Of a stretch of 64,000 nucleotides of DNA, positions 36,898 through 58,129 are shown one piece after another (the first letter of the stretch is position 1; every line of letters begins with the position of its first letter). The stretch is from the NCBI GenBank assembly GCA_012514635.1, contig JAAYZX010000122.1, positions 3,449 to 67,448 on the forward strand, read 5' to 3'. Under the pieces are notes generated by a model. The model made no database searches, had not been told where the DNA came from, and saw nothing but the letters and a program-made list of their open reading frames with translations. The translations under genes were made by a program, and so were the position numbers. Source of the DNA: Actinomycetota bacterium. GTDB lineage: Bacteria; Actinomycetota; Thermoleophilia; RBG-16-64-13.

Positions 36898-37995
36898 CTA
36901 CCTCCCCTCGTCGGCGGCGTTCAGGCTGCTCAGCAGTTCTTCCTGCTGTGCCACCAGTGCCGGTGTCGGTTCAGCGAATACGTGCCGGAATATCTCCTCA
37001 GGCTCGGACGGAGGTTTAGCCTCAAAGGCCTCCACCCATCCGGCCACTTTGGCTTCGGCCTCGGCCGCCACTGCGGCCTCGGCCGTCTCGTCCAGCATGC
37101 CCGCAGCCCGCATGTACCTAGCGAGGCGCTCCAAAGGGTCACGTTCCTGCCAGAAAGCCAACTCTTCCGCGGTGCGATAGCGACGCGCATCGTCCGACGT
37201 GGTGTGGTCAGACATGCGGTAGGTATGAGCCTCGATCAGCGTGGGGCCCTCCCCATTGCGTGCCCGCTCGACGGCCTCTTTGGTCACGCGGTAGACGGCG
37301 AAGATATCGTTACCGTCCACTTGGATGCCGGGCATACCATACGCCACCGCCTTCTGGGCCACTGTGGCCGCTGCCGTCTGGCGCTCATACGGCACGGATA
37401 TGGCCCACTGGTTGTTCTGGCACAGGAATATCACCGGCGCTTGGAACACGGCGGCGAAGTTCATAGCCTCGTGGAAGTCGCCCTCGGAGGTGGCGCCGTC
37501 ACCGAAGATGGTCAGGACCACCGCCCGCTCTTTGTTATGTTTCATCGCCCAGCCGATCCCCACAGCGTGCAACATGTGCGTCCCCACGGGCACCGAGATC
37601 GGCAACATACGCGAGCCCGCCGGGAAGTCATGGCCCCGCTCATCGCCGCCCCAATACTGCAACAGCTTCTCAGGGGGTATGCCCCGCAGGAGGAAGGAAC
37701 CGGTCTCGCGAAAAGCCGGCACCAGCCAATCCTCCTTGGCAAGCGCGTAGGTGGCTCCTATATGTGCCGCTTCCTGCCCCAGCACGCGGGCAAAGGTCCC
37801 GATCCGCCCCTGCCTCTGCAACTTGAGCATGCGGTCATCCAGTTTGCGCGTGGTGACCATGGTTGCGTACAGCTCCCGGATCTGTTCCGGGGTGAGGTCG
37901 GGCATGAGTGCGGCATCAACGGTTCCCGCCGGGTCCATGACCTCCACCCGCGGGATGGTGAACGATACGAGATTGGTGACCGGCACCTGCCTCAC
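36898..37995 (-). CDS. 2-oxo acid dehydrogenase E1 component alpha subunit (TPP-dependent)
   Basis: TPP motif GDGATSEGDFHEAMNFAA, with an AGGAGGTGA SD. Confidence 0.9.
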   Translation of the reverse strand: MRQVPVTNLVSFTIPRVEVMDPAGTVDAALMPDLTPEQIRELYATMVTTRKLDDRMLKLQRQGRIGTFARVLGQEAAHIGATYALAKEDWLVPAFRETGSFLLRGIPPEKLLQYWGGDERGHDFPAGSRMLPISVPVGTHMLHAVGIGWAMKHNKERAVVLTIFGDGATSEGDFHEAMNFAAVFQAPVIFLCQNNQWAISVPYERQTAAATVAQKAVAYGMPGIQVDGNDIFAVYRVTKEAVERARNGEGPTLIEAHTYRMSDHTTSDDARRYRTAEELAFWQERDPLERLARYMRAAGMLDETAEAAVAAEAEAKVAGWVEAFEAKPPSEPEEIFRHVFAEPTPALVAQQEELLSSLNAADEGR

Positions 37996-40683: not shown

Positions 40684-40845
40684 GACATTAAGCCTCGTTT
40701 TCATCCGGCCAGAGTGCAAACCGGCGAGGTGCGCGGAGGTGTCGTCTGATATACTTTGGCCGCTTCTTGGCCCTGCCGACCTTGATCCAGGTTGGCCTCG
40801 GGCGCGGTTTCGGCGTGGCAACAACACCAGCGGAGGACAAAAGAG

Positions 40846-46713: not shown

Positions 46714-48093
46714 TCAGCCACGACGCGAATCAAGCAGCTTCCGCTTTGCCGGCGACGCTAAGCCCCCCTCCGGGACCACCTCCATATTGACCTGCAGGCC
46801 GGAACGTCGCACGGCAGGAATCATCTCAATGCGCTCGATCATCGCCTTCAACTCCACATCCGGCGGTTCAGCGCACACTTCCACCCATAGCATCAGCCCG
46901 GAACTTCCCTCCGGCGGCGTAGCCCCCGAGACCTGCGCTCCCCCTTGGACCAGCTCAGCGGAAAACGCGACCACCCATCCCGCGCCATACACCGTCTCAT
47001 CCAAATCAGCCATGGTCAGCCGCACCCCGGCAGTAGGCTCCACTGCGTCCTGCAGCCGCCCCTGTACACGATCCAGACAGCGCAGCACACTGCCACATAC
47101 GCAAGGGCGTTGCAATAGCTTCCCGCTGTCGCCTGTGCGATACCGGATGAGAGGCATGCCCCGCCGGGTGAGGGTGGTCACCACCAGTTCGCCCGTCTCA
47201 CCCAACGGAAGCACTTCGCCTGTTCGCCGGTCTATTACCTCAAAGATCAGGTCGGCCTCGCGAATATGCAGTCCCGAAAACGCCTGACACTGTACCGCTC
47301 CACCCAAGCCGGTCTCGGTGGATCCGTAGTGCTCAAATACGGAGCAATCCCAAGCATCTTCGACGGCCGTCCGCAAAGAGGCCGCCACGTAGTCGCCCGA
47401 GAACAGCACCGCCTTCACCCGACCGGCAGGAACTGTGCGACCCGCCCGGCTCCGAGCCAGTCGCAGCATCTGACCGGGCACTCCTACCAAGCAATCGGCC
47501 TCAAACTCCAGGATGTGCTGCACGGCCGGTCCACAGTCATTCACGAACCCGTGAACTTCTACCTCCACCCCATCCCTAGCCAACCCCCTATTCAGAAGAT
47601 CCCCCACGCTCCCCGGAATGGCGCCCGGCATGAAGACGAGTACCCGCTGTCCACGTTGAACGAGAGCGCGCATCCCGTGGCGGAAGTGGTCGATGGTGAG
47701 CTCAAGATCGTCCTCGGTGAACCAGAGACGTTTCGCGACCCCCGTGCTGCCCGAGGTGCGAATGGTGACAACTCGGGCGATGTCACTTTGCGAGACGCAT
47801 ACAAAGTCCAGACCACGCCTGCGCAAATCCTCTTGCTGTACGAAGGGCAGACGCCCAAGATCGCTCAGTCTCTGCGGTGTGTCTGGTGGCAGATGTTCAT
47901 AGAGATCACGATATAAAGGGCTCCGGTCGCGGGACCAAGCCACAACTTCACGCAACTGAGCAAGTTGCCAATGCTCAAGGTCGGATCGAGACAAGGGAAC
48001 GCCGGATGAGGCGGCTTTTGCGGCCTTCTGGGCATCACCCCCCACGCCGATCCGCCGAGCCGTCCATTCGTCGAGCGGGGTGATGGGGATCAT
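46714..48093 (-). CDS. PaaK-like / coenzyme F390 synthetase-like adenylate-forming ligase
   Basis: TSGSTGVAKR, YGSTETG and YRTGD motifs in a roughly 430-aa PaaK-type architecture. It overlaps the upstream radical SAM gene by 4 nt. Confidence 0.8.
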   Translation of the reverse strand: MIPITPLDEWTARRIGVGGDAQKAAKAASSGVPLSRSDLEHWQLAQLREVVAWSRDRSPLYRDLYEHLPPDTPQRLSDLGRLPFVQQEDLRRRGLDFVCVSQSDIARVVTIRTSGSTGVAKRLWFTEDDLELTIDHFRHGMRALVQRGQRVLVFMPGAIPGSVGDLLNRGLARDGVEVEVHGFVNDCGPAVQHILEFEADCLVGVPGQMLRLARSRAGRTVPAGRVKAVLFSGDYVAASLRTAVEDAWDCSVFEHYGSTETGLGGAVQCQAFSGLHIREADLIFEVIDRRTGEVLPLGETGELVVTTLTRRGMPLIRYRTGDSGKLLQRPCVCGSVLRCLDRVQGRLQDAVEPTAGVRLTMADLDETVYGAGWVVAFSAELVQGGAQVSGATPPEGSSGLMLWVEVCAEPPDVELKAMIERIEMIPAVRRSGLQVNMEVVPEGGLASPAKRKLLDSRRG

Positions 48094-49478
48094 GGTCCGC
48101 CGGTGGTCGTTCTGAGATAGAGCCTCTTGCCGGATTCGCTGGTCAGGTTCCAGAGGCAGAATGGAATCAATCCCCTACCAGGCACAAGCGCGTGCACGCA
48201 GCAGCGGCGTACACGCTCCAGATCCAGATCCCAGGCATCTTGGAAGAGCATGCCCGACACGGCCAGGATTCGGCCGGCGGCTTCTAGGAAGCGATCGAGA
48301 TCGTCGCACGCTGCGCCTGCCGTGTCGCCCTTGTCAGAGCCGTAGTCGCCGACGTAGTCATTGCGGCCGACCGGACCGAGGCTCCATTGCCGCGCCGTGG
48401 CTGCCACGGCGCGGCGCGCGGCCGAGCTGAGCTCGGCCGCGCACGCTCCCGTCTCCGAGCGAACGAGTTCCAGACGACCATCCTCCCGCACCCAGTACCG
48501 CGCACGGAAGGAGCAGCGCACATGCTCGCAGCTACTCGGCTCAAAGTCGTCCGCCTTTATTCGGCTACCCGTCTGGCTCTCCAGGGCCCGCAGGATCTCG
48601 GGCAAAGTGAGTCTGGGTCGTTCCCCGACAGGATATCGGCCAAAGTAACTCACCGGCTGAAAGTGAACCCCCCGCACCACCCCCGCCCACTCCGTAGCGA
48701 AATCCACCAGCGCCCCAAGTTCTCCATCGTTGACCCCGGCCACCACGGTCGACACCAACACCACCGCCAACCCCGCTTCGGCGCAGCGCTCCACCGCCCG
48801 TAGCTTTTCTGCACCAAAAGCCCTTCCTCGTATGGCGCGGTGCGTGGCATCCATGAGACCGTCGAACTGTAGAAACACCGACACCAGCCCCGCATCGCGC
48901 AGTTTTTCAGCGTATTCGAGCTCCTGGGCCAGACGCAACCCATTGGTGTTCAGCTGCACAAACGCAAACCCGGCAGCGCGCGCCAAACTAATGATATCCG
49001 GGAGATCGGCACGCAGCGTAGGTTCACCACCGGAGAGCTGCAGATTCACCGATCCCTGCATAATGAAGAGATCCCGCAGCGTCGCCTCAAGTTCACGGAG
49101 CGACGGATCAGAACCAGGAGTATCGGGACGACTCTCCGCAAAGCAGATGGGGCAGACGAGGTTGCAGCGCCGAGTGATCTCAAGTACCGCCGTACAGGTG
49201 GACTGCTGGTGCTCCGGACACAGACCACAGGCCAGAGGGCAGGCCGACGGCGTCGACAACACCGCTTCTCTCGGAACGGAACAGCTTACAGTGCCCTTAT
49301 CCGCACACCAGGCACGATAAGATGGGGGACCGCTCCAAATCAGGGTGCTCCACATGCCGTGATCCGGGCAGTGCCCCTCCAGCCTGACCTCCTCCCCTGC
49401 GAAGCGCCGCTCGGCGGGCACTCGAGCTAGGCACACAGGACAGAGGCTCTCGGTGGGCTCCCGCTCGTCAGACTTCAC
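48090..49478 (-). CDS. Radical SAM enzyme with N-terminal zinc-ribbon
   Basis: N-terminal CPVCLARV...GHCPDHG, then the radical SAM motif ITRRCNLVCPICF with the glycine-rich LSGGEPTL. There are extra Cys residues at the C-terminus (RRCCVHALVP...FCLWN). Confidence 0.8.
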   Translation of the reverse strand: MKSDEREPTESLCPVCLARVPAERRFAGEEVRLEGHCPDHGMWSTLIWSGPPSYRAWCADKGTVSCSVPREAVLSTPSACPLACGLCPEHQQSTCTAVLEITRRCNLVCPICFAESRPDTPGSDPSLRELEATLRDLFIMQGSVNLQLSGGEPTLRADLPDIISLARAAGFAFVQLNTNGLRLAQELEYAEKLRDAGLVSVFLQFDGLMDATHRAIRGRAFGAEKLRAVERCAEAGLAVVLVSTVVAGVNDGELGALVDFATEWAGVVRGVHFQPVSYFGRYPVGERPRLTLPEILRALESQTGSRIKADDFEPSSCEHVRCSFRARYWVREDGRLELVRSETGACAAELSSAARRAVAATARQWSLGPVGRNDYVGDYGSDKGDTAGAACDDLDRFLEAAGRILAVSGMLFQDAWDLDLERVRRCCVHALVPGRGLIPFCLWNLTSESGKRLYLRTTTGGP

Positions 49479-49914
49479 GTGACTCGGTGGGGTCGAGGCC
49501 GTGTTCCATCAGGATGCTCATGGCCTGCATATACGCTTCTGCTACGATGGGTCCGCACCGTTCCGTGCTTGGGGTGCCGTTGCCAAGGATATCATTGCAC
49601 CTCACTCCCCCATATCGCCCGCCGATCTCTGCCTGGAACCACTCCTCCAGCTCGCTCAACATAAGCAGTAGGTCCTCGTGTTCTTCCTCGTCGTCTCGAC
49701 CCTTGGCCGCATACAACGCAATAAGGCACGCAGCTCCCGTCAGGCTTCCACATACTCCCTCACCCCTGCCACCTCCCAGAGCCAACCCGCCTACGGCTCG
49801 TATGAGATCTGGGTTGTTTTTGCCCTGGGCTTCCAGGCCCATTAAGAGCAGGATCTGGCTGCAGTAATAGCCTTTCCGCGACAGGTCCATCATGTGCATT
49901 CGTGTCTCGTCCAT
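49468..49914 (-). CDS. C_GCAxxG_C_C family putative redox protein
   Basis: YCSQILL ... GVCGSLTGAACLIALY ... RCNDILG ... CGPIV, matching the C...CGxxxG...C...C pattern of that family; 148 aa. Confidence 0.75.
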   Translation of the reverse strand: MDETRMHMMDLSRKGYYCSQILLLMGLEAQGKNNPDLIRAVGGLALGGGRGEGVCGSLTGAACLIALYAAKGRDDEEEHEDLLLMLSELEEWFQAEIGGRYGGVRCNDILGNGTPSTERCGPIVAEAYMQAMSILMEHGLDPTESREV

Positions 49915-49935
49915 TGTCCCTCCTCGTCGGCAGGC

Positions 49936-50700
49936 TCAGGTCGAAACCCGTTCGGCCACAAGCAGGAAGTAGCCGGGCCGAACTGCCGCGATCGCCTCGC
50001 GACACGGAGCACCATCTCCCAGCGCCGCCTTCCAGAAACGGGCGGCCGACCCGTAACTGAAGATCATGCGCGCTATAAAGACCTTGAGGGCGTGGGAACA
50101 GTCACGCCACACACGCACAGAAAAACCCGCATCTCTCAGTCTGGAGATGGTGACCTCTTCATTTACGGCGCCGCACAGACAGGTGTTCGCAGACGTTCGC
50201 TCCACCCAAGTAGTGACTTTTGCCCAATCAGTGCCATCAGAGTCTCCAACCGGGCCCCGGAGATAGACGTCGGTTATAGCCACGATCCCCCGAGGACGCA
50301 GCACCCGGCCAATCTCACCGAGAGCCCGCTCCGGATCGCCAAGCGTGCTGATAACGCACTCGGCAAAGACGACGTCGAAGAACCCGTCGGCGTAGGGAAT
50401 GCGTTCCGCCTGCCCCTCCACCCAGGTTACGTCCTCTCGTCTGGCCTGCGCTTCGGCCAGGCGAGAGACCGAGCAGTCGAGACCCACCACCTCCGCCCCC
50501 CACGCGCGGACCAGATATGCTGCCGTAGATCCCGTACCACATCCCAGATCGAGTACCCGCCAACCCGATTGCAGTCCGCACGCAGCCGCCAACTCTTCCG
50601 TCAGCTCTAAGCCTCCCGGCCTGAGTTCATCTCCAACAGCCTCTCGAAATGGGGCCTGCACCCACAGTCCGGAGGTTGTTGCGCACCTACTTGTCTTCAA
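49936..50700 (-). CDS. Class I SAM-dependent methyltransferase
   Basis: VLDLGCGTGSTAAYL motif I, followed by DVVFAEC; 254 aa. Confidence 0.8.
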   Translation of the reverse strand: MKTSRCATTSGLWVQAPFREAVGDELRPGGLELTEELAAACGLQSGWRVLDLGCGTGSTAAYLVRAWGAEVVGLDCSVSRLAEAQARREDVTWVEGQAERIPYADGFFDVVFAECVISTLGDPERALGEIGRVLRPRGIVAITDVYLRGPVGDSDGTDWAKVTTWVERTSANTCLCGAVNEEVTISRLRDAGFSVRVWRDCSHALKVFIARMIFSYGSAARFWKAALGDGAPCREAIAAVRPGYFLLVAERVST

Positions 50701-50902
50701 GGATTTGTTCCACTTCGGCCATGCGCCCGGTGGCCAGTTCCTCGGGGATGAGATAAAGGCCGCAATCGGGACAACGTGGCAACTCGAGCGTGAACGAATT
50801 TCCCAGATAGGTCAACTCCACGGGGCCCACTTCCAACGGACGTGAACAACGGCAGCACATCCAGCGCAGATCGTCCTCGGACAAACGGGCAATACTCGCC
50901 AT
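50687..50902 (-). CDS. Small 4-Cys zinc-ribbon protein (71 aa)
   Basis: CCRC ... CPDC pairs. It overlaps the downstream methyltransferase gene by 14 nt and abuts the upstream gene stop. Confidence 0.5.
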   Translation of the reverse strand: MASIARLSEDDLRWMCCRCSRPLEVGPVELTYLGNSFTLELPRCPDCGLYLIPEELATGRMAEVEQILEDK

Positions 50903-50903
50903 G

Positions 50904-53297
50904 TCACACCTGCCGTTCTACAGCCATGCGATGACTGTAGGCATTGTGCACTTCGAACCCCGAATCTCGGAGTGAATATTCCACCCAAAACGTGACGGCG
51001 CGAGGCCGGAAGAAGGCCAGAAAGTGCCCCGACGAATCGTGACAGAGTTTCTCTTCCGTATGTTCTGCGTGATATATCGCCTGTTGTATATCCTCCACCA
51101 AGATGCGGCGCGTGTCCAACAGGGTCTTAACTTCGTCCGCGATGATCAGTTGCACTTCCTGCCAAGGTTCCAAGGCTCCGCCTCCTTCGTTCCACAACTC
51201 CCTCAGCAGCCGTGCCTTCAGCCGGGCACGGTTCTCCCGTCGCTCGGACCAACCCGGTCTGCGTCTGCCTGCCGGATCCTCCTCCGTTGGATAGATGAGA
51301 TCGAGCACGTGCAGAATCCGCTTGCCTTGCGCTGCCAGACTGTCCCGGCACATGGCGCAATAAGTTACGTATTCCAGCGGGCTCTCTGCGCTGCGTCGTA
51401 CAGCCACGGCCGCCGCGAGCTGTGGGTTGGCGTTGGCCTGAAGGCCACCGTAACCGCAACACCCCGTGATCTGTCCCGACAACGCCAACTCCTCGATGGG
51501 CTGATCCAAATGTGCCAGCAATCTACGGACGCTCTGCTGCACATGCGTGCGATCCCGAGTAGTGCATGGGTCATGAAGCCCCCGCGGCAAAAGTGTAGGT
51601 CCTCCTGCACCCACAGTGATTCCCGTCTCTTCCATGATTTCGCTTAGAAACACATGGGTGCCTGTTCCCAAATGCGGAGCCAGAACGTCTTGGCAGGTAG
51701 GGCATGCAAAGATGAGCATCGGATCGCCCAGGCGATGCCGCTCCCTCAGAATGTCGGCGAGCCCCTGCCCAAACAAATCTTGCCTTCCTGCCCAGGTAGG
51801 AGGCGCGCCGCAACAATCCAGGATGAGACCTACGCCTCCTGTCAACTTCCCACGCAGATACTCGTAGACGGCCTCCACCTGAGCAGGGTTGGAGCCGGCC
51901 AGTTGACAGCCGGGGAAAAAGGCGTAGGAGCAACGCTCGCGTCCCGGTTCAGTGCGCGCAAGCACGAAGGCCGCCGAACGACTGAACGCGTAATCCTCTA
52001 GAGCAAACTCGTGAGCCGAGGGCGGCATCTTGCCCCTCTCCACCATCCCGCGCCGCGCCTCCAGACAGAGATCGGCCATGGAAAAATTCTCCGGACACAC
52101 CGCAGTGCAGAGACCGCATAACATGCATGAGTTGATGAGGCGGTTGGCTTTGTGCTCGCCCTGTACGATGGCTGCGTTATTGTAGATCTCGCGGGCGTAC
52201 CGACGTGGGTAACTACCGAAATGATGGAGATAATCACAGACTTTGACGCACTCAAGGCATTCGCAGCGCAGACAACGATCCGCCTCCTCTTGGGCTTCCT
52301 CCGCCGTGTACGCACCTCCCACGTCTTCGGGTTCGATCGACGGCAGCGACTCCACCCTCGCCAAGCTCACAAAAAGACGAGTGGGCTGAGGACCCTCCTT
52401 CTCCCGCGCAGCTGTGAGCGAAGCTCCCTGAAGGAAACGATCTATCGACACGGCAGCCCGGCGACCTTGGAGCGCCAAACCTACAGGCGACACCCTCCCC
52501 CCCGATGAAAGGCCGTCTCCCGTGGCCGAGCCTCCGCCCGGTGTCGCTTCGTCGCCCGCGAATACGCCCTCCCACTGGGTTGCCAAAGTTTGACGATCGT
52601 AGGGGAGCACCGGCCGGCCGTCGGGGCCCACGCCTGCCGGTTGCAACTCTTCCTCACCCCCCTCCACGAATACGGCAGCGAACTCTGCACGCAACTCCTC
52701 CAACGAGGGAGACTCACCAAGACGGAACTCCACTCCCAGAGCAGACAGCGCCGCCACCTCTGCCGCTACGACTTTCGGCGGAAGCAGTTCCGGCGGAAAC
52801 TGCAGGAGCCGGCCGCCGGCCGTTTCATAGGAGTCGAACACTGTAACGGGATGACCCTTGCGGACTAGATCGGAGGCCGTGGTTAGGCCGGCCAACCCCG
52901 ACCCCACCACCGCCACCCGCGCGTCACGACGCGGCAGGATCAGAACCCGATGGGTAGGGGCAGGCCTCGTCACACATGCCCGTTCCAGTGCCCCTATGCG
53001 CACGGCGTCACCGCGCTCGCGGCGCCTGCAGCGCAACTCGCAGGGATGATCACAGATCCGCCCCAGGATACCGGGGAGCGGCATGGTCTTGCGGAGAACC
53101 TTCCACGCCCCATCCCAGTCTCCCACCGCCACGGCCATAACGAACGAACGGGCGTCTACGTGCAGCGGACAGGCGGCGACGCATTCTGCCGGTTCTTCCT
53201 GTATGCAGCGGCGCTCGAATTCACGCAGTCGGGACTGTTCCATGGCCGGTTCCTCGTAGGACATCGTCGGGGGCCCGCGGAGCGGGCCCCCGACCAC
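50904..53297 (-). CDS. Fused oxidoreductase: GltD-like FAD/NAD(P)-binding module + 2x[4Fe-4S] ferredoxin + HdrD/GlcF-like CCG domain
   Basis: N-terminal CIQEEPAECVAACPLH...RICDHPCELRC, the dinucleotide fold VAVVGSGLAGLTTASDL, ferredoxin motifs CLRCECLECVKVCDY and CMLCGLCTAVCPE, and CCG motifs LILDCCGAPP, FACPTCQ and GCCGYGGL. Confidence 0.8.
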   Translation of the reverse strand: MVGGPLRGPPTMSYEEPAMEQSRLREFERRCIQEEPAECVAACPLHVDARSFVMAVAVGDWDGAWKVLRKTMPLPGILGRICDHPCELRCRRRERGDAVRIGALERACVTRPAPTHRVLILPRRDARVAVVGSGLAGLTTASDLVRKGHPVTVFDSYETAGGRLLQFPPELLPPKVVAAEVAALSALGVEFRLGESPSLEELRAEFAAVFVEGGEEELQPAGVGPDGRPVLPYDRQTLATQWEGVFAGDEATPGGGSATGDGLSSGGRVSPVGLALQGRRAAVSIDRFLQGASLTAAREKEGPQPTRLFVSLARVESLPSIEPEDVGGAYTAEEAQEEADRCLRCECLECVKVCDYLHHFGSYPRRYAREIYNNAAIVQGEHKANRLINSCMLCGLCTAVCPENFSMADLCLEARRGMVERGKMPPSAHEFALEDYAFSRSAAFVLARTEPGRERCSYAFFPGCQLAGSNPAQVEAVYEYLRGKLTGGVGLILDCCGAPPTWAGRQDLFGQGLADILRERHRLGDPMLIFACPTCQDVLAPHLGTGTHVFLSEIMEETGITVGAGGPTLLPRGLHDPCTTRDRTHVQQSVRRLLAHLDQPIEELALSGQITGCCGYGGLQANANPQLAAAVAVRRSAESPLEYVTYCAMCRDSLAAQGKRILHVLDLIYPTEEDPAGRRRPGWSERRENRARLKARLLRELWNEGGGALEPWQEVQLIIADEVKTLLDTRRILVEDIQQAIYHAEHTEEKLCHDSSGHFLAFFRPRAVTFWVEYSLRDSGFEVHNAYSHRMAVERQV

Positions 53298-53307
53298 AGC
53301 GTTACAG

Positions 53308-56038
53308 TTAGAGGGCTTTGAGTCCGGCCAGTACCTTTTCCGGCAGAGCGGGAAGGTGGGTGATCCTCACTCCGGTGGCATTTTTGATGGCATTAATGAC
53401 CGCCACGTGCGATGCCGTCAGCGGACACTCGCCCACACCGGCTGCTCCAAAGGGGCCGTTCTCGCGAGGACTCTCCACGTAGAGGAGCTCGATATCGTCG
53501 GGGATGTCCTCGGCATAGGGCAGACCGCACGAGACCATGGTTCTGTGCTTGGTCAAATCTTCACAGTCTTCGGAGAGCGCCAGACCGATACCCTGGGCAA
53601 TGCCCCCGTACATCTGGCCGTCCACCACCAGCTTGTTGTTGATTCTGCCCACGTCGGCCACAGCGGTGTACTTCTCTATCTTGGTCTTGCCCGTGGCCAC
53701 CTCCACCGCCACCTCGGCCATAAAGAGGCCGTACATGTATACGGAAAAGGGGCTGCCTTGGGCGTTCTCGTCACAGGCGGAGGCCATGGAAGCCGTGTAT
53801 TTGCCCGCATAACGGATGGCTATCCCCTCCGCCACCATCTCGTCATAGGTACGGAAGGACCCATCTGTCTTTTTCATGGCCGCCACCAACTGCTGACACC
53901 CATTCACGATGGCGTTGCCTGTGACCACCTGCTGGCGACTGCCTCCGGACGGGCCGCTATTAGGAGTCACGCCCGTGTCGTTCATGACCAGTTTGATACT
54001 CTCCGGCGCCAGACTCAGTGGGCGCAGAGCTTCATGCGCAGTGCCCAAGGCGCCCATGTCGGCCCCCTGGCCGTGATCTTCCCAGGAAACACCAAGCGTC
54101 ACACCGTCTTTGGTCAGCTCCACCCACACTTCGGAAGAGTCGGGACCATCGAGGCCGCACCCGTAGATGCCGAGGGAGACACCCACGCCCTTTTTGACGT
54201 TTGCCGTGGATTCTTTTTGAGCCTTCTCCAGCGCCGCCTGGTAGCGGGGACGCAGCAGATCGATCATCTCCGGGAAACTCCAGGCATCCGGGGTCTGACC
54301 GGTGGGAGTGGTGGCAGCGGCACGATATACATTCTTGTAGCGAAGCTCCAGCGGATCCACTCCCATCTTCTCGGCCAGTTCATCCATGAGGCTTTCAGAG
54401 GCCAGGAAGGCCTGCGGTGAGCCGTAGGCACGGAAGGCGCTCCCCCAAATATGGTTGGTGCATACGGTGCGGCCCACACCTCGAATAGCCGGGATGTCGT
54501 AGCCCGCTCCCATGTATTGTGCCCCGCGCAGCGTCAACAAGTCACCGAACTCGGAATACGGACCGTGGTCCACGGTCCAGTCGCTCTCCATGGCCAGCAA
54601 CTTACCGTCAGCGTCGGCCCCAAACTTAAGCCGTACGAAGAAGGGGGAACGCTTACCCGTATAGGTGATGTGTTGGAAGTAGTTGTAGCGCAGCGTTACC
54701 GGACGACCTGTGGCCATGCAGGCCACTCCCAGTAGGGCTTCCATGGTAGGCGAAAACTTGTAGCCAAAGGTGCCGCCGGCCGGGTTCTGTATCAAGCGCA
54801 GCTTATCCGGTTCCACGCCCAATCCGGGAGCGATCATGGCGTGGTGCAGGTGAATGCCGATGCTCTTGGAGTGAATGGTGAGGCGTCCTTCTTCGTCATA
54901 GTAAGCGAGACCCACATCCGGCTCGATGGTGAGGTGTGGCTGCCGTTGCAGATAGAATTCGTCTTCCACCGTATGGGTGGCGGCAGCCATAATGGGATCC
55001 GTGTCCTCGCCCTTGGCGATGTTCTGTTCAAAGTAGACGTTGGGCGTCCCGGGATGGATCTCAATGGCATCTTCAGCCATGGCCGCCGGTGCGCTCATAT
55101 AGGCGGGCAACACTTCCAAGTCCACCTTGACCTTGGCCGCCGCCGCCCGGGCGTGCTCCTCCGTATCGGCGCACACTATGGCCAGAGCGTCGCCGTATTG
55201 GAACACCTTCTCGTCGCAGAGGATGGGACGATCCCAACCGTCACCCTTGTTGGTAGCGAAGGTAATGAGGCCGGTGATACGGTTCTTTCCCTGTACATCC
55301 TTGTGGGTGATCACCTTGTAAACGCCGGGCATACTCTCAGCCTCAGCAGTATCAATAGAGCGGATGTTGGCGTGCGAAACTTCGGCCTGAGCCAGGGCCA
55401 TATGCAGTGAACCCGGCGGGAGCTTGAGTCCCAGATCGGCTCCGTAATCGATGGTGCCGCTAACCTTGGCCACCGCTGAGGGCCGTGGGTAGGCGCTGCC
55501 CCAGATCCGACCGTCGGCCGGCATCTTGAACTCGAGCTCGTCCTGTGGCATCTCACCGCGCAGCACCTTGGCGGCATCCATGACCGCATCGACAATAGGT
55601 TTATAGCCGTTACAGCGGCAGGCGTTGCGATGCGTCTGGAACCAGGCCCGGGTCTCCGCTCCGGTGGGATTGGGATTATCGTCGAGCAATACTTTAGAAG
55701 AAACTACAAAACCCGGCATACAGTAGCCGCACTGGGGCGCGCCATGTGTCACCAACGCCTGCTGCACCGGATGTAGGTTATCTGGAGTTCCGATACCCTC
55801 AACAGTGGTGATACGGGCGTCGTCGGGTACCCGGTTCATGCTGGTGATGCAGGAACGCACCAACTCGTCGTTGACGATAACGGAGCAGGCTCCACACTGA
55901 CCCTGCCCACACCCTATTTTGGTCCCCGTCATTCCCAACTGTGCCCTTAGGACATTGGCAAGATTGTCCTCAGGCTTTGCGACGATCGTCCTGGCGATAC
56001 CGTTAATGAAGAACTTTTTTTTGATCACCGACCGTGCC
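53308..56038 (-). CDS. mop: Molybdenum-containing aldehyde oxidoreductase (Mop-like, xanthine dehydrogenase family; 2x[2Fe-2S] + Mo cofactor domains, no FAD domain)
   Basis: The N-terminus KKKFFINGIARTIV...GCGQGQCGACSV aligns from memory with Desulfovibrio gigas MOP (MIQKVITVNGIEQ...GCEQGQCGACSV). The length is about 910 aa. The start is set at GTG 56038 with a GGAGAGAGG SD, because the ORF-track start at 56061 adds 8 aa. Confidence 0.9.
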
Positions 56039-56261
56039 CCCTCTCTCCTGCCGAGATTCACTTGAGCGAAGTGTCATTAGGGAAACGTATGGCTACATCC
56101 CCCTTTATTTCATCCTACCATGAGCAGTGATACACAGATTGTGGTCGACGGCAATATGTAGCTTGGATAATTGCAGGAGATTCAGCCCTCCTCAACGCAT
56201 GTTTCAGCACCCTATTAACGAAAGTGAGCCGCGAAACGCCGGTCGGGCACCCGCATCGGCT

Positions 56262-56294
56262 CCCGGCATCCGGCTCTGCGGGCCGGATGCCGGG
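56262..56294. terminator. 13-bp perfect-stem GC hairpin separating the SLH gene end from the mop operon leader
   Basis: cccggcatccggc tctgcgg gccggatgccggg. Confidence 0.5.
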
Positions 56295-56335
56295 ATATAC
56301 ATTCCCGCGCGGAAGGGGAAGGCTCGGCGATTTGA

Positions 56336-58129
56336 CTAACGGTAGAAGTAGAATTCCTCAGGGTAAGCCAAGTACCGTACGGGCAGCAAATTAGCCCATC
56401 CGTATTCCCGCGCCTCCCTCCCATCCATTTGCAATGCAAAGGCCTGTTCAGGTTTTGAATCGAGCCAGAACGTGAAGTTGGAGTACGGCGTAAGCGGGTG
56501 GGTTGACGCCGGGAATCCGTAATTGAACCAGCCCCCATCGATCATCCAAAACTTCAGGTTCATGCCCGAGGGACAAGCGTCAAACATGGACTGGGTATCC
56601 GCAAGAGTAGGCAGTCTCCAGTTCTTCCAACCCGATCCAGTACCATTCAGAGTATCTGTAATGATGCTTACGGCGGTGTTCTTTTCCATGGGGCTGCGAG
56701 TCTTGAACACATTGGAATCCAGCATGATGTCGTCGTACACAGACCCCGTCCCCCTTACTATGTAGAAACCGGGATTCACTGTACGAGGAAAAAGAGCCTG
56801 CTGGGCCTGTTTGCTGACAACGTAATCATCGAACTCTTTCGCTAAGGTCTCAATCGTATAATCCCTATAGTGCATATACTCGATGACTAGTTCTTCCTGG
56901 ATAGCCTGTATATCCATCCAGTAATTATACATGGCATACTGAGCATCAGAAGCAGCGGTGTTGAAGAAGTGATAAGAACCGGCTACCGCTCGACTCCAGC
57001 TCTTGATAAGACCACCATCGGCAAACCCGATACCCAGCATCGCGTTACTGATCTGGTTTTTCCCAGGCATGATGTGGTTATTGATTAAGTTGTAGATATC
57101 GTCAATCTGGCTCTGCGGTGCGGGCGACGGTGAGGCGGCCAGCGATGTTAGTAGACCATGGGCAGTCTGTATGGCACTGACCTGCGCCCCCAGGCCGGCG
57201 GCGAGCACGTTGTAGTTAGTGCTGGCCAGCTGATTCTGAAGGCTTGATATCTGCGCCGATATCTCTTCTATGCGCAGGGAGACGTCCTTCAGGAGCTGCA
57301 GCGTCTCGTCGGCGACCGTCATGCCTAGACCGGCTTGGTTGAGTATCCAGCCGACGCCGGAGTCCGGATATCGGACCCCGATCTCATGGGCGAGCATTGA
57401 GCCGAGTTTGACCGCGATGTTCAGCGAACCGGTAACTCGCGGCGGCGAGATCAGTGCCTCCGAGCGGATGAGCAGAGCAGCCGCTTGAGCACGCCACAGG
57501 TTGGAGAGGGGTTTCAGGCTGCTATCGTGATCACCCTTCGCGATGCCGTGCTCGAAGGCCAAGGCCAGCTCGGGCTTCAGACCGGCGGAGATACTCGCGG
57601 CGTCGCTGAAGTTGCCCAGGAGACTGTCCACGTCACCAGGAATATACATGGTGGCAAGATCGGAACCCAAGACCGACGCAGCGCGCCGAGAAATAATACC
57701 GATGGCCTCCTCCCGGGTGATGGGGTCATCGGGGTTGAATGTGGTCGAAGTGACGCCATTGACCAAACCGGCCGCTTTGGCGCCCTCTATGTAGCCATAG
57801 TAGAGATCGTCCCTAGGAACATCCGCAAAACTGGGGGTCTCCGGATTCGACTCTCCAAGTCTGAAGGCCGTCATGGCCATCTTGGTGAACTGAGCGCGGG
57901 TGATATCGGCCCAGGGCTTCCACGCCCCGTTGAAACCCTCAGATATGCGCGCGACCTGCTCTTCTGTGACACCATACTCTGTCATCACCGACTCGGGCAA
58001 GTCGCTCCACTGACCGCCGAGCGCGGCATTAGATATGCCAAGAACCAGAACAACAGCCATCAACATCACCAGGGTTAGTTGCACTGCGCGTTTCTGCACG
58101 CCTCCACCTATCCTCTCGTAGGGTGTCAA
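56336..58129 (-). CDS. Surface protein with N-terminal signal/TM, SLH (S-layer homology) repeats and C-terminal DUF1566 (Lcl C-terminal) domain
   Basis: SLH motif FADVPRDDLYYGYIEGAKAAGLVNGVTSTTFNPDDPITREEA, and a C-terminal WKNWRLPTLADTQSMF typical of DUF1566. Confidence 0.75.
   Translation of the reverse strand: MTPYERIGGGVQKRAVQLTLVMLMAVVLVLGISNAALGGQWSDLPESVMTEYGVTEEQVARISEGFNGAWKPWADITRAQFTKMAMTAFRLGESNPETPSFADVPRDDLYYGYIEGAKAAGLVNGVTSTTFNPDDPITREEAIGIISRRAASVLGSDLATMYIPGDVDSLLGNFSDAASISAGLKPELALAFEHGIAKGDHDSSLKPLSNLWRAQAAALLIRSEALISPPRVTGSLNIAVKLGSMLAHEIGVRYPDSGVGWILNQAGLGMTVADETLQLLKDVSLRIEEISAQISSLQNQLASTNYNVLAAGLGAQVSAIQTAHGLLTSLAASPSPAPQSQIDDIYNLINNHIMPGKNQISNAMLGIGFADGGLIKSWSRAVAGSYHFFNTAASDAQYAMYNYWMDIQAIQEELVIEYMHYRDYTIETLAKEFDDYVVSKQAQQALFPRTVNPGFYIVRGTGSVYDDIMLDSNVFKTRSPMEKNTAVSIITDTLNGTGSGWKNWRLPTLADTQSMFDACPSGMNLKFWMIDGGWFNYGFPASTHPLTPYSNFTFWLDSKPEQAFALQMDGREAREYGWANLLPVRYLAYPEEFYFYR

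What the first reader, a model, noticed from the sequence alone, without database searches (positions are those of the whole stretch)
46714..56038. Seven-gene operon coupling a Mop-type aldehyde oxidoreductase to a radical SAM / PaaK-like ligase / C_GCAxxG_C_C / methyltransferase / zinc-ribbon cassette of unknown function
All seven genes are on the minus strand. Their boundaries overlap or nearly touch: a 4-nt ATGA overlap at 48090-48093, an 11-nt overlap at 49468-49478, a 22-nt gap, a 14-nt overlap at 50687-50700, an abutment at 50902/50904, and an 11-nt gap at 53297-53308. That spacing is a strong indication of one translationally coupled transcript. In transcription order the genes are: Mo aldehyde oxidoreductase, a fused flavin/Fe-S/CCG oxidoreductase, a 71-aa 4-Cys protein, a SAM methyltransferase, a C_GCAxxG_C_C protein, a zinc-ribbon radical SAM enzyme, and a PaaK-like ligase. 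From memory (not verified here), this order mirrors the consecutive Desulfovibrio vulgaris locus DVU_1553 to DVU_1559. In that locus DVU_1559 is mop, and NCBIfam/TIGRFAM names such as 'DVU_1553 family AMP-dependent ligase', 'DVU_1555 family C-GCAxxG-C-C protein', 'DVU_1556 family methyltransferase' and 'DVU_1557 family redox protein' were defined purely from co-occurrence, with no known function. As far as I know, the five-gene cassette has not been tied to a function. I see two hypotheses. First, the cassette could be a maturation or modification system for the Mop enzyme or its Mo cofactor. Second, it could be a small pathway in which Mop oxidises an aldehyde to an acid, the PaaK-like ligase activates the acid as a CoA thioester, and the radical SAM enzyme and methyltransferase tailor the product. 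In either case the fused flavo-Fe-S-CCG protein would be the electron acceptor for Mop. The segment sits between conserved backbone genes (leuS and uvrB), so it may be accessory.
Basis: partly seen in the sequence, partly recalled or inferred. Interest (0 to 1): 0.85.

Follow-up and report, generated by a model that had tools for sequence, protein, structure and literature searches.

The report
Conserved Mop aldehyde-oxidoreductase accessory gene cluster
This is a real, intact copy of a seven-gene cluster found in many hundreds of anaerobic bacterial species; it pairs a well-known molybdenum aldehyde-oxidising enzyme with a dedicated iron-sulfur partner and four accessory enzymes whose job nobody has yet worked out.

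Summary
Seven tightly packed minus-strand genes (46714-56028) each score above the curated NCBIfam cut-off for Mop, the DVU_1558-type Fe-S flavoprotein, DVU_1557, the DVU_1556 methyltransferase, DVU_1555 C-GCAxxG-C-C, radical SAM TrsS and the DVU_1553 ligase. The order is conserved: 51 of 80 TrsS-anchored reference loci and 25 of 39 Mop-anchored metagenome loci. D. gigas, source of the crystallised MOP, has the same order with one extra gene inserted. Curators already recognise the neighbourhood (TrsS: Haft & Tolstoy 2025), so this is a new member (Actinomycetota MAG) of a known cluster of unknown function.

New clues:
- mop, the Fe-S flavoprotein and DVU_1557 form the tightest module.
- DVU_1557 is always C-terminal, is sometimes fused to the flavoprotein, and ends in an invariant LEDK-COOH.
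- The flavoprotein lacks an NAD(P)H domain and has two complete HdrB-type CCG motifs.
- TrsS keeps all Tes/GDGT-MAS metallocentre motifs plus its own conserved Cys95.
- The methyltransferase keeps both As(III)-binding cysteines of ArsM.
- XdhC, MocA and desulfurase genes are often interleaved elsewhere but absent from this window.

Best reading (about 0.3): Mop feeds electrons to an Hdr-like disulfide-type reductase, and the other four genes build or regenerate its sulfur- or metalloid-type acceptor.

The parts
53308..56028 (-). mop: molybdopterin (MCD)-dependent aldehyde oxidoreductase, 906 aa from GTG 56028 (the ORF is open back to 56061)
   Evidence: NF045668 1658.8 bits, cut-off 1100. Pfam Fer2, Fer2_2, Ald_Xan_dh_C, MoCoBD_1 and MoCoBD_2. 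1419 bits, end-to-end alignment to D. gigas MOP 1SIJ/1VLB, including the [2Fe-2S] Cys motifs and the GVGE active-site Glu.
50904..53243 (-). DVU_1558-type Fe-S flavoprotein ('fadFeS'), 779 aa from ATG 53243. Domains: Fer4_20 Fe-S domain, one dinucleotide-binding Rossmann domain with no NAD(P)H domain, a 2x[4Fe-4S] ferredoxin domain, two complete CCG motifs, and a roughly 100-aa C-terminal domain.
   Evidence: NF045663 983 bits, cut-off 530. Pfam Fer4_20, Fer4_17 and CCG. The N-terminus resembles Stn/Nfn/GltD modules. Ten invariant CCG cysteines; only about 113 residues lie between GxGxxG and VFAGG.
50687..50902 (-). DVU_1557 / DUF7479: 71-aa Zn-ribbon protein with four invariant Cys and an invariant C-terminal L-E-D-K-COOH
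   Evidence: NF045645 96.3 bits, cut-off 60; PF24292. Terminus identical in 108 of 108 family members (D at position 70 in 106/108), with no extension. Always C-terminal in the best 150 of 334 library clusters (about 140 of 150 end exactly there). Fused to fadFeS in 8 of 160 loci.
49936..50661 (-). DVU_1556-family SAM methyltransferase, ArsM-like (alternative start TTG 50700)
   Evidence: NF045667 224.6 bits, cut-off 155. Invariant C102 and C161 (82%) align with the two As(III)-binding Cys motifs of human AS3MT 8XT7 and Chlamydomonas ArsM 5EVJ. Fused to TrsS in P0120.
49468..49914 (-). DVU_1555-family C-GCAxxG-C-C protein, 148 aa, four invariant Cys (C18, C55, C106, C120)
   Evidence: NF045669 165.3 bits, cut-off 103; PF09719. 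Conservation. No solved relative by sequence. CGC-TrsS fusions: P0041 and L028.
48090..49478 (-). TrsS: radical SAM enzyme of the Tes/GDGT-MAS fold, all-Cys form (no selenocysteine)
   Evidence: NF045646 562.5 bits, cut-off 490; the Tes model scores only 318.6 against a cut-off of 450. 7TOL E 8e-78. Model pLDDT 80.8; TM 0.76/0.71 to 7TOL. Motifs for the rubredoxin-like Fe, [4Fe-4S]N, RS and [4Fe-4S]C sites (including Met410) are conserved, plus a family-specific C95 at 99%.
46714..48093 (-). DVU_1553-family PaaK-like adenylate-forming ligase, 459 aa; start overlaps the TrsS stop (ATGA)
   Evidence: NF045666 439.1 bits, cut-off 300; the PaaK models fall far below their cut-offs. PaaK 2Y27 E 3e-30. 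Invariant C269, C331, C333 and a conserved K-R near the C-terminus.
56029..56335 (-). 307-nt region upstream of mop, containing a perfect 14-bp GC-rich hairpin (56261-56295) just after the SLH gene stop; the operon promoter probably lies here
   Evidence: Sequence; fold (-42.2 kcal/mol, z -2.0). No Rfam family hit even at E<=1.

Best explanation
The locus is an intact copy of the conserved 'Mop cluster' of anaerobes (the D. gigas mop locus / D. vulgaris DVU_1559-DVU_1553 type). I read it as two coupled modules.

Module 1 is mop, the 779-aa Fe-S flavoprotein and the 71-aa DVU_1557 protein.
- Mop oxidises an aldehyde to the acid at its Mo-pterin site.
- It passes two electrons through its two [2Fe-2S] clusters to the dedicated Fe-S flavoprotein.
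- That partner has no NAD(P)H-binding domain and ends in an HdrB-type double CCG site. The electrons therefore most likely reduce a disulfide-type (S-S or S-X) acceptor rather than NAD(P)+.
- DVU_1557 is the detachable C-terminal Zn-ribbon domain of this partner. Its invariant ...LEDK-COOH tail is a functional arm or docking element at that site.

Module 2 is the ArsM-type methyltransferase, the four-Cys C-GCAxxG-C-C protein, the Tes-type radical SAM enzyme TrsS and the PaaK-type ligase. It is an accessory system that consumes ATP and SAM. It makes, attaches or regenerates the sulfur-, selenium- or metalloid-containing group on which the CCG site works.
- The ligase activates a carboxylic acid (possibly Mop's product) and transfers it to a thiol or to the terminal Lys of DVU_1557.
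- TrsS abstracts hydrogen from an unactivated carbon and joins that carbon to a thiophilic atom, either sulfide from its own cluster or an atom held by the four-Cys protein.
- The methyltransferase methylates a cysteine-bound atom.

Shown: gene content, family membership, synteny, fusions and conserved residues. Inferred: every chemical step, the identity of the acceptor, and the link between the two modules.
For: - All seven proteins fall in the curated families.
- Mop-anchored loci: flavoprotein 53/56, DVU_1557 50/53, CGC 41/46, TrsS 34/42, ligase 31/39, methyltransferase 38/51. Some loci have mop-flavoprotein-1557 only (L090, L091). Module 1 is therefore the core and module 2 is separable.
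- DVU_1557 is fused in-frame to the flavoprotein's C-terminus in 8 of 160 loci. In a search of 1.84 billion proteins it is essentially always C-terminal, and always on CCG proteins when fused.
- L68, E69 and K71 are 108/108 and D70 is 106/108, with no extension beyond K71.
- The flavoprotein has ten invariant Cys in two C...CC...CxxC motifs, a conserved GxGxx(G/S/A), and no room for a second dinucleotide domain. It gives weak hits to TfrB and LdhH CCG proteins.
- Physical coupling inside module 2: a methyltransferase-TrsS fusion (P0120) and CGC-TrsS fusions (P0041, L028).
- TrsS shares the whole GDGT-MAS fold and its metallocentre motifs. Tes is reported to form a substrate-sulfur adduct at its C-terminal cluster (PMC13459092).
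- The methyltransferase keeps both ArsM As(III)-binding cysteines.
- In a few loci the cassette accompanies divergent XDH-family enzymes or even a DMSO-reductase-type enzyme (L005, L007, L008, L076, L052). That fits a redox-partner or acceptor role better than a role specific to Mop's active site.
- D. gigas has the full cassette, yet to my knowledge its native MOP is an unmodified MCD enzyme, which points the cassette's target away from Mop itself.
Against: - Nothing here shows any of the chemistry.
- Some loci have TrsS without the ligase, methyltransferase or CGC nearby (L006, L018). Others have CGC and the ligase without TrsS or the methyltransferase (L134, L164). The module is therefore not an obligate four-part machine, at least not locally.
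- The DVU_1557 model is only moderately confident (pLDDT 67). Its fold search gives no significant hit and does not recover LysW or any known carrier protein.
- To my knowledge, D. gigas MOP was purified alone and reduces flavodoxin in vitro, so a stable Mop-flavoprotein complex is unproven.
- XdhC, MocA-like and desulfurase genes are interleaved with the cassette in Firmicutes. That pattern also fits a Moco-related role.
- The ArsM-like cysteines could serve a purpose unrelated to the CCG site.
Confidence: 0.3

Rival explanations
1. Small-molecule pathway. Mop oxidises a specific aldehyde. The PaaK-like ligase converts the acid to a CoA thioester. TrsS and the methyltransferase then tailor it by C-C coupling or C-methylation at an unactivated carbon. 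The Fe-S flavoprotein, DVU_1557 and CGC act only as electron carriers.
For: - The ligase's closest characterised relatives are aryl-acetate CoA ligases and natural-product ligases (PaaK, FlxY, BagE, AjiA1).
- The methyltransferase's best solved relatives are natural-product methyltransferases.
- From my own knowledge, an aldehyde oxidoreductase followed by a PaaK-type ligase is the logic of anaerobic phenylalanine degradation.
- In the close relative L084 a second acyl-CoA ligase, a thiolase and a CoA-binding protein lie just downstream.
Against: - The cluster is kept in physiologically very different anaerobes: sulfate reducers, Geobacter, acetogens, Chloroflexota and Actinomycetota. None share an obvious special substrate.
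- No transporter or regulator is consistently linked.
- The cassette also accompanies non-Mop molybdoenzymes.
- The ligase's C-terminal domain is barely conserved.
- The ArsM-type cysteine pair and the invariant DVU_1557 tail go unexplained.
Confidence: 0.2
2. Molybdenum-site or Moco maturation. The cassette installs or repairs a labile feature of Mop's Mo centre or pterin, such as a sulfur, selenium or alkyl ligand, that is lost on purification. This would be analogous to CoxDEF for CO dehydrogenase or YqeB/YqeC for selenium-dependent Mo hydroxylases.
For: - The neighbourhood is full of Moco-handling genes. In the 80 TrsS-anchored loci: XdhC in 42, a MobA-like NTP transferase with HD domain in 36, His_Phos_1 in 34, MoCF_biosynth in 22 and a cysteine desulfurase in 9.
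- In Sporomusa and Fusibacter these genes are interleaved between cassette genes, with two XdhC sets.
- From my own knowledge, as-isolated D. gigas MOP is largely desulfo, so a labile ligand could have escaped notice.
- The thiophile-binding methyltransferase and CGC would suit handling of a Mo-S or Mo-Se species.
Against: - D. gigas has the cassette, but to my knowledge its high-resolution native structures show standard MCD.
- The canonical maturation set (XdhC, MocA, desulfurase) is already present and sufficient in other XDH-family systems.
- DVU_1557 is tied to the CCG protein, not to Mop.
- L052 links the cassette to a bis-MGD-type enzyme.
Confidence: 0.15
3. Aldehyde-powered radical SAM system. 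Mop, the flavoprotein and DVU_1557 serve mainly as a low-potential electron supply for TrsS. DVU_1557 acts as a Dph3-like or rubredoxin-like Fe(Cys)4 shuttle. The biologically important product is whatever TrsS, the methyltransferase and the ligase make.
For: - From my own knowledge, aldehyde/acid couples are low enough in potential to reduce radical SAM clusters.
- The four invariant Cys in DVU_1557 and NCBI's name 'redox protein' fit this.
- From my own knowledge, diphthamide synthesis uses a similar parts list: radical SAM enzyme, methyltransferase, ATP-dependent ligase, small 4-Cys electron donor and a reductase.
Against: - Mop is an abundant catabolic-type enzyme in D. vulgaris proteomes (PMC10920352), out of proportion for a reductant supply.
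- mop-flavoprotein-1557 occurs without TrsS nearby.
- The double CCG site is unexplained.
Confidence: 0.1
4. Organo-arsenic or other metalloid metabolism. The ArsM-like methyltransferase plus the radical SAM enzyme form carbon-metalloid bonds, as ArsM/ArsS and ArsM/ArsL do. CGC acts as a metallochaperone. Mop and the ligase process the carbon skeleton, or the system protects arsenite-sensitive Mop.
For: - Both ArsM As(III)-binding cysteines are conserved in the methyltransferase.
- The methyltransferase and TrsS are fused in P0120.
- CGC has four invariant Cys.
- Arsenite binds the Mo site of D. gigas MOP (PDB 1SIJ; plus my own knowledge).
- NCBI names TrsS and CGC as '(seleno)proteins'.
Against: - The methyltransferase scores far below the arsenite-methyltransferase cut-off (71.8 against 263) and lacks ArsM's C-terminal domain.
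- No ars genes recur in the loci.
- Such wide, tight conservation with Mop is odd for a trace-metalloid process.
Confidence: 0.08
5. TrsS is a bacterial tetraether or membrane-spanning lipid synthase, as proposed for 'bacterial Tes homologs', and merely neighbours mop.
For: - 7TOL E 8e-78, TM 0.76.
- JGI labels some homologues 'tetraether lipid synthase'.
- Zeng et al. 2022 proposed brGDGT synthesis for bacterial Tes homologs.
Against: - The score is below the Tes equivalog cut-off, and a separate curated family exists.
- The region corresponding to Tes residues 332-445 does not align.
- The enzyme is embedded in, and sometimes fused with, a soluble redox and methyltransferase cassette across phyla.
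- To my knowledge, D. gigas and D. vulgaris are not known to make such lipids.
Confidence: 0.03

Closest known systems
D. gigas mop locus / D. vulgaris DVU_1559-DVU_1553 cluster (NCBIfam NF045668, NF045663, NF045645, NF045667, NF045669, NF045646, NF045666)
   Same: All seven families are present in the same order and on the same strand. Mop scores 1419 bits against the crystallised D. gigas enzyme.
   Different: The host is an Actinomycetota MAG. The window lacks the XdhC, MocA-like/HD, His_Phos_1, MoCF_biosynth, nitroreductase and HEAT genes that flank or interrupt the cluster in D. gigas and many others. The flavoprotein carries a unique 12-residue Gly/Ser-rich insertion.
Tetraether lipid synthase Tes / GDGT-MAS (PDB 7TOL)
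   Same: Full-length fold (TM 0.76/0.71, 30% identity). The N-terminal 3Cys+His rubredoxin-like site, the 3Cys+His [4Fe-4S]N, the radical SAM cluster, and the C-terminal cluster motif including the Met ligand are all conserved.
   Different: The score is below the Tes cut-off (318.6 against 450). The middle, substrate-side segment does not align and is about 60 residues shorter. TrsS has a family-specific, 99%-conserved Cys95 ten residues before CxxxCxxC. Its genomic context is a Mo-enzyme and redox cassette, not lipid genes.
Arsenite methyltransferase ArsM/AS3MT, and ArsM + radical SAM pairs (ArsS, ArsL)
   Same: Class I SAM fold. Both As(III)-binding Cys motifs (SNC-VINL and GEC-LxGAL) are retained. 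It is adjacent to, and sometimes fused with, a radical SAM enzyme.
   Different: It scores far below the ArsM cut-off, is only about 215-240 aa, and has no ArsM C-terminal domain. The radical SAM partner is Tes-like and unrelated to ArsS or ArsL. No ars genes are nearby.
Heterodisulfide-reductase-type CCG proteins (HdrB/HdrD, DsrK with DsrC, TfrB)
   Same: Two complete five-Cys CCG motifs preceded by a 2x[4Fe-4S] ferredoxin domain. A small partner or domain with a strictly conserved C-terminal tail recalls DsrC's C-terminal arm working with DsrK (my own knowledge).
   Different: The N-terminus is a GltD/NfnB-like Fe-S plus flavin module without an NAD(P)H domain. The conserved tail carries Lys, not Cys. 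The electron source is an XDH-family Mo enzyme.
XDH-family enzymes with GltD-like partners or maturation operons (E. coli XdhD-YgfK, paoABCD, cox clusters)
   Same: A Mo/2x[2Fe-2S] enzyme is encoded with a GltD-like Fe-S flavoprotein (weak YgfK, AegA and YgfT hits) and, in relatives, with XdhC-type chaperones.
   Different: No FAD subunit of the CoxM/XdhB type. The partner is fused to an Hdr-like module. There are four extra enzymes with no counterpart in those operons.
Carrier and swinging-arm proteins (LysW, lipoyl domains)
   Same: A small acidic Zn-ribbon protein with an invariant terminal residue is encoded beside an adenylate-forming ligase and tailoring enzymes.
   Different: The fold search does not recover LysW. 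The ligase is ANL/PaaK-type, not ATP-grasp or LplA-type. No modification has been observed. The resemblance is in architecture only.

Membership tests
DVU_1553-1559-type Mop cluster (curated NCBIfam set) | Each of the seven proteins scores above the curated cut-off of its family model | tested here: met
   1658.8/1100, 983/530, 96.3/60, 224.6/155, 165.3/103, 562.5/490 and 439.1/300 bits.
DVU_1553-1559-type Mop cluster (curated NCBIfam set) | Colinear order mop - Fe-S flavoprotein - 1557 - MT - CGC - TrsS - ligase on one strand | tested here: met
   for the window. Same order in 51 of 80 TrsS-anchored loci and 25 of 39 Mop-anchored loci, and in D. gigas with one inserted gene.
Mop (D. gigas-type Mo aldehyde oxidoreductase) | Full-length similarity with the two [2Fe-2S] motifs, the Mo-cofactor domains and the active-site Glu | tested here: met
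   residues 1-905 align to 1-907 of 1SIJ; the CGxGxCGAC, CGYC and CRC motifs and GVGE are conserved.
Mop (D. gigas-type Mo aldehyde oxidoreductase) | MCD cofactor and aldehyde-oxidising activity | not testable with these tools
   Needs biochemistry.
Tetraether lipid synthase Tes / GDGT-MAS | Score above the Tes equivalog cut-off (NF045702, 450 bits) | tested here: not met
   318.6 bits, matching only residues 9-320.
Tetraether lipid synthase Tes / GDGT-MAS | Four metallocentres (rubredoxin-like Fe, [4Fe-4S]N, RS, [4Fe-4S]C with Met) and the overall fold | tested here: met
   Ligand motifs conserved (against the description in PMC13459092). TM 0.76/0.71 to 7TOL.
Tetraether lipid synthase Tes / GDGT-MAS | Lipid substrate and C(sp3)-C(sp3) tail coupling | not testable with these tools
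   The segment equivalent to Tes residues 332-445 does not align. The product is unknown.
Arsenite methyltransferase ArsM/AS3MT | Score above the PRK11873 cut-off (263 bits) and three-domain architecture | tested here: not met
   71.8 bits. The protein is about 241 aa and has no C-terminal ArsM domain.
Arsenite methyltransferase ArsM/AS3MT | The two As(III)-binding cysteines (hAS3MT C156/C206 equivalents) | tested here: met
   C102 (100% in family) and C161 (82%) align with the Cys of SNCVINL and GECLGGAL in 8XT7 and 5EVJ.
Phenylacetate-CoA ligase PaaK | Score above the PaaK equivalog cut-offs | tested here: not met
   TIGR02155 118.7 against 646.3; NF041878 144.1 against 700.
Phenylacetate-CoA ligase PaaK | Adenylate-forming core and C-terminal catalytic Lys | tested here: met
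   PF00501. 2Y27 E 3e-30 over residues 34-366. Conserved K-R near the C-terminus. The acyl acceptor (CoA or otherwise) is not testable.
HdrB/HdrD-type CCG disulfide reductase | Two CCG motifs, each with five conserved Cys | tested here: met
   C446, C477, C478, C514, C517 and C560, C595, C596, C629, C632 are all 100% in 120 sequences. Pfam CCG hit.
HdrB/HdrD-type CCG disulfide reductase | Non-cubane clusters and heterodisulfide substrate | not testable with these tools
   Needs spectroscopy and enzymology.
GltD/NfnB-type NAD(P)H-dependent Fe-S flavoprotein | Second (NAD(P)H) dinucleotide-binding domain | tested here: not met
   Matches stop at about residue 216. Only about 113 residues lie between GxGxxG and the VFAGG motif, with no second Gly-rich motif.
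LysW-type amino-group carrier protein | Fold similarity to LysW and an ATP-grasp LysX-type ligase partner | tested here: not met
   Fold search best hit is the MqsA Zn ribbon at E 0.036; LysW is not listed. The ligase is ANL-type.

The most novel reading that the evidence does not exclude
The four accessory enzymes build a previously unknown covalently tethered prosthetic arm. This would be a sulfur-, selenium- or metalloid-bearing acyl group attached to the invariant C-terminal lysine of DVU_1557. It would be shuttled to the HdrB-like site of the Mop partner and reduced there. In other words, it would be a new lipoyl- or DsrC-like swinging-arm redox cofactor, made by a Tes-type radical SAM enzyme and an ArsM-type methyltransferase, and widespread in anaerobes.
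Probability: 0.12. Interest if true: 0.9.

Novelty: new member of a known kind. Interest (0 to 1): 0.6.

Why it matters
- Mop has been a textbook molybdoenzyme since the first XO-family crystal structure, yet its physiological partner and the purpose of its conserved neighbours are unknown.
- The cluster occurs in at least 591 species-level genomes across many anaerobic phyla. Its function is therefore a sizeable gap in anaerobe redox biochemistry.
- The clues found here make the question directly testable in genetically tractable Desulfovibrio. They are an Hdr-like terminal site, a mini-domain with an invariant C-terminal Lys, an ArsM-type cysteine pair, and a complete Tes-type metallocentre set.
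- There is also a practical caveat for lipid-biomarker studies. TrsS matches GDGT-MAS at E 8e-78 and would pass the BLAST filters (E < 1e-50) used to count 'bacterial Tes homologs' as candidate brGDGT synthases (PMC8941075). Some public annotations already call TrsS homologues 'tetraether lipid synthase'.

Tried and rejected
- **Selenocysteine.** I looked for in-frame TGA in TrsS in 80 loci and found none. The N-terminally short database entries (P0075, P0080, P0082 type) are mis-called starts, not Sec truncations. The Sec position of '(seleno)protein TrsS' stays unknown and is irrelevant to this all-Cys copy.
- **Riboswitch.** No Rfam hit in the window at gathering thresholds, nor upstream of mop at E<=1.
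- **Haft & Tolstoy 2025** (PMC12013261) is not in the library. Citing papers only list TrsS in a table.
- **D. vulgaris Hildenborough locus.** Not retrievable; the cluster members found were other Nitratidesulfovibrio strains. Papers mentioning DVU1559 only report protein abundance.
- **LysW homology of DVU_1557.** Not supported by the fold search.
- **Structure of the C-GCAxxG-C-C protein.** There is no solved relative by sequence, and literature on the broad family was uninformative.
- **Shared flanks with relatives.** None found.
- **Papers linking ArsM-like methyltransferases, radical SAM enzymes and aldehyde oxidoreductase.** None found.
- **The D. gigas genome paper** does not discuss the operon.

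Full report
**Observation**

The window carries seven co-directional minus-strand ORFs between 46714 and 56061.

| Protein | NCBIfam model | Bits / cut-off |
|---|---|---|
| Mop, molybdopterin-dependent aldehyde oxidoreductase | NF045668 | 1658.8 / 1100 |
| 'Pyridine nucleotide-disulfide oxidoreductase/dicluster-binding protein' (Fe-S flavoprotein) | NF045663 | 983 / 530 |
| DVU_1557 family redox protein | NF045645 | 96.3 / 60 |
| DVU_1556 family methyltransferase | NF045667 | 224.6 / 155 |
| DVU_1555 family C-GCAxxG-C-C protein | NF045669 | 165.3 / 103 |
| Radical SAM (seleno)protein TrsS | NF045646 | 562.5 / 490 |
| DVU_1553 family AMP-dependent ligase | NF045666 | 439.1 / 300 |

Pfam gives the matching domain content.

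Homology-supported starts change two junctions:
- Mop starts at GTG 56028.
- The Fe-S flavoprotein starts at ATG 53243, which leaves a gap of about 64 nt after mop.
- The methyltransferase start is ambiguous (50700 or 50661).
- The ATGA overlap between TrsS and the ligase, the 11-nt CGC/TrsS overlap and the near-abutment of the flavoprotein and DVU_1557 stand as described.

Promoter-like and terminator-like hits inside the cluster do not exceed shuffled expectation. A perfect 14-bp hairpin (56261-56295) separates the cluster from the upstream SLH-domain gene. No known RNA family lies upstream.

The flanks are housekeeping genes: rpsA, coaE, SLT, uvrB and the SLH protein on one side; leuS, EamA, acetyl-CoA synthetase, RNase J and a 2-oxoacid dehydrogenase complex on the other. 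GC content is unremarkable. An identical DVU_1557 protein is recorded from an 'Actinobacteria bacterium' MAG, and the closest loci are Gaiellales and Thermoleophilia MAGs.

**Conservation**

A scan of one genome per GTDB species found at least 591 stretches encoding TrsS relatives. I analysed the best 80. They span Actinomycetota, Desulfobacterota, Bacillota, Chloroflexota, Nitrospirota, Acidobacteriota, Spirochaetota and Myxococcota. I also analysed 80 metagenome loci anchored on Mop at 65-77% identity.

| Component | TrsS-anchored loci | Mop-anchored loci |
|---|---|---|
| All seven genes colinear on one strand | 51/80 | 25/39 |
| mop | 60/68 | (anchor) |
| Fe-S flavoprotein | 69/75 | 53/56 |
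| DVU_1557 | 77/79 | 50/53 |
| Methyltransferase | 69/79 | 38/51 |
| CGC | 74/80 | 41/46 |
| TrsS | (anchor) | 34/42 |
| Ligase | 73/78 | 31/39 |

Denominators count only loci whose contig extends far enough to evaluate that gene.

So mop, the flavoprotein and DVU_1557 form the tightest unit, and the other four genes form a more separable module. Local variants exist:
- mop-flavoprotein-1557 only (L090, L091);
- that core plus CGC and the ligase only (L134, L164);
- that core plus TrsS only (L006, L018).

In a few loci the cassette sits beside divergent XDH-family enzymes at 35-50% identity (L005, L007, L008, L076). In one locus (L052) it sits beside a [2Fe-2S]-fused DMSO-reductase-type enzyme with a CoxM-like FAD subunit.

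**Extended neighbourhood**

Clustering the unassigned ORFs of the 80 TrsS-anchored loci revealed recurrent neighbours:
- XdhC in 42 loci;
- a MobA-like nucleotidyltransferase fused to an HD domain (MocA-like) in 36;
- a His_Phos_1 phosphatase in 34;
- a MoCF_biosynth protein in 22;
- a class-V aminotransferase (cysteine desulfurase) in 9.

In Sporomusa and Fusibacter these genes are interleaved between cassette genes, and Sporomusa has a second, split XdhC. The window encodes none of them.

**D. gigas**

I rebuilt the D. gigas MOP sequence from the PDB alignment and found its database entry (P0121, 100% identity). I then read its genome context: MoCF_biosynth - mop - nitroreductase - flavoprotein - DUF7479 - methyltransferase - C_GCAxxG_C_C - TrsS - ligase - XdhC - His_Phos_1 - HEAT. 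All six accessory proteins fall in the same NCBIfam families.

To my knowledge, the native enzyme from this organism was solved to 1.28 A. It shows ordinary MCD and two [2Fe-2S] clusters, is a homodimer without a partner subunit, and carries no extra modification. A stable covalent modification of Mop or its pterin by the cassette is therefore unlikely. A labile ligand or a transient role is not excluded.

**Component anatomy**

*TrsS*
- It matches GDGT-MAS/Tes (7TOL) at E 8e-78.
- Its model (pLDDT 80.8, pTM 0.85) superposes at TM 0.76/0.71 over 494 columns. No other radical SAM structure exceeds 0.41.
- Tes has a rubredoxin-like Fe (3Cys+His), [4Fe-4S]N (3Cys+His), the RS cluster, and [4Fe-4S]C (3Cys+Met). 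It forms a substrate-sulfur adduct at the C-terminal cluster (PMC13459092).
- TrsS keeps CPxC...CPxH, CPxxCGLCPxH, CxxxCxxC, Met410, C426 and C441 at 99-100% conservation.
- It adds a family-specific Cys95 (99%).
- It scores below the Tes cut-off and diverges in the segment equivalent to Tes residues 332-445.

*Fe-S flavoprotein*
- The N-terminus is an Nfn/GltD/Stn-type Fe-S plus flavin module.
- Only about 113 residues lie between the GxGxxG and VFAGG motifs, so there is no NAD(P)H domain.
- A 2x[4Fe-4S] domain and two complete five-Cys CCG motifs follow. All ten cysteines are invariant in 120 sequences. This is the HdrB pattern.

*DVU_1557*
- It is a Zn-ribbon hairpin followed by a helix (model pLDDT 67).
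- All 108 family members end exactly at L-E-(D)-K-COOH.
- A profile search of 1.84 billion representatives finds only 334 clusters. In about 140 of the best 150, the domain's last position is the protein's last residue.
- When fused, the domain is the C-terminus of CCG proteins.

*Methyltransferase*
- Its invariant C102 and its C161 (82%) align with the two As(III)-binding cysteines of human AS3MT and algal ArsM.
- It is fused to TrsS in P0120.

*CGC protein*
- It has four invariant Cys.
- It is fused to TrsS in P0041 and L028.

*Ligase*
- It is PaaK-like, with a conserved terminal Lys-Arg. The rest of its C-terminal domain is poorly conserved.

**Interpretation**

The best-supported statements are structural:
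1. Mop, the flavoprotein and DVU_1557 form a unit.
2. That unit terminates in an Hdr-like site rather than an NAD(P)-binding site.
3. The methyltransferase, TrsS and CGC act together physically.
4. Both the methyltransferase and CGC are built to hold a thiophilic atom.
5. TrsS has the full apparatus for radical activation of an unactivated carbon and its capture on cluster sulfur.

From these I infer, at about 0.3 confidence, that Mop-derived electrons reduce a disulfide-type acceptor, and that the four accessory enzymes make, attach or regenerate that sulfur-, selenium- or metalloid-bearing group. The invariant C-terminal Lys of DVU_1557 is a candidate attachment or docking point.

Rivals, in order of my confidence, are:
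- an aldehyde-to-acyl-CoA tailoring pathway;
- a labile Mo-site maturation system;
- an aldehyde-powered radical SAM system;
- organo-metalloid metabolism;
- lipid synthesis (unlikely).

None can be excluded without experiments. The analogy between DVU_1557 and LysW failed a fold test, so it is architectural only.

**Prior knowledge and novelty**

- The neighbourhood is already encoded in NCBI's curated models, whose names and consecutive accession numbers suggest they were built as a set.
- TrsS is listed as a selenoprotein family from Haft & Tolstoy 2025 (PMC13188914). I could not read that paper.
- I found no functional study of DVU_1553-1558.
- The window's locus is therefore a new member of a known, functionally unassigned cluster.
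- As far as I could find, these points have not been published: the C-terminal LEDK invariance, the DUF7479-CCG fusions, the ArsM-type cysteine pair, the module structure, and confirmation of the cassette in D. gigas.

**Side implication**

Bacterial 'Tes homologs' counted by BLAST (E < 1e-50) as candidate brGDGT synthases (PMC8941075) would include TrsS. Some public annotations already call TrsS homologues 'tetraether lipid synthase' or '7,8-dihydro-6-hydroxymethylpterin dimethyltransferase'. The operon context argues that these are not lipid synthases.

Noticed in passing
window 40767-42800 (+): A 677-aa acetyl-CoA synthetase (ACAS_N, AMP-binding, AMP-binding_C) lies about 4 kb downstream of the cluster on the opposite strand. 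It could take up acetate if Mop's substrate is acetaldehyde, or its position could be coincidence.
   Followed up: no
window 56336-58129 (-) and 56261-56295: A 597-aa SLH-domain protein with no NCBIfam match sits directly upstream of mop in what appears to be an Actinomycetota MAG. A perfect 14-bp GC hairpin without a U-tract follows it.
   Followed up: partly
window 50904-53243 (-), protein residues 234-245: The window's Fe-S flavoprotein has a 12-residue Gly/Ser-rich insertion, shared by at most 1-3 of the other 119 family sequences. It reads VFAGD where the family consensus is VFAGG.
   Followed up: no
L051:11991-14711: A second full-length mop copy (64% identity) is inserted between TrsS and the ligase in a deltaproteobacterial MAG that also has mop at the head of the cluster.
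   Followed up: no
L052:4289-12731: The cassette (1557-MT-CGC-TrsS-ligase) follows a CoxM-like FAD subunit and an 809-aa [2Fe-2S]-fused DMSO-reductase-family molybdoenzyme instead of Mop and the flavoprotein.
   Followed up: partly
L028:1775-13215 (Pelotomaculum, same contig as L013): This is a decayed second copy of the cassette. It has an IS-type transposase, a truncated ligase, a fragment of the flavoprotein's C-terminus and a 695-aa CGC-like-TrsS fusion.
   Followed up: partly
L077:4365-9951 (Sporomusa silvacetica): Between the methyltransferase and TrsS lie a split XdhC (XdhC_C and XdhC_CoxI as separate genes), CGC, a second full-length XdhC, MocA-HD, a cysteine desulfurase, and two small ORFs (94 and 104 aa) with no Pfam match.
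   Followed up: partly
L165:12800-13414 and 21244-21861 (D. gigas): A nitroreductase-family gene is inserted between mop and the flavoprotein, and a HEAT-repeat protein ends the D. gigas operon. L048 has a DUF364/DUF4213 'heavy-metal chelation' protein between TrsS and the ligase.
   Followed up: no
database entries P0075, P0080, P0082, P0241 and names: Gene callers often truncate TrsS at the N-terminus (non-ATG starts). Public names for family members are inconsistent: 'tetraether lipid synthase' and 'hydroxymethylpterin dimethyltransferase' for TrsS, and 'DNA-binding protein', 'RpoP' and 'ribosomal protein L32' for DVU_1557.
   Followed up: yes
window 34471-37995 (-): A complete E1-alpha/E1-beta/E2 2-oxoacid dehydrogenase complex with a lipoyl domain is encoded about 9 kb downstream of the cluster.
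   Followed up: no
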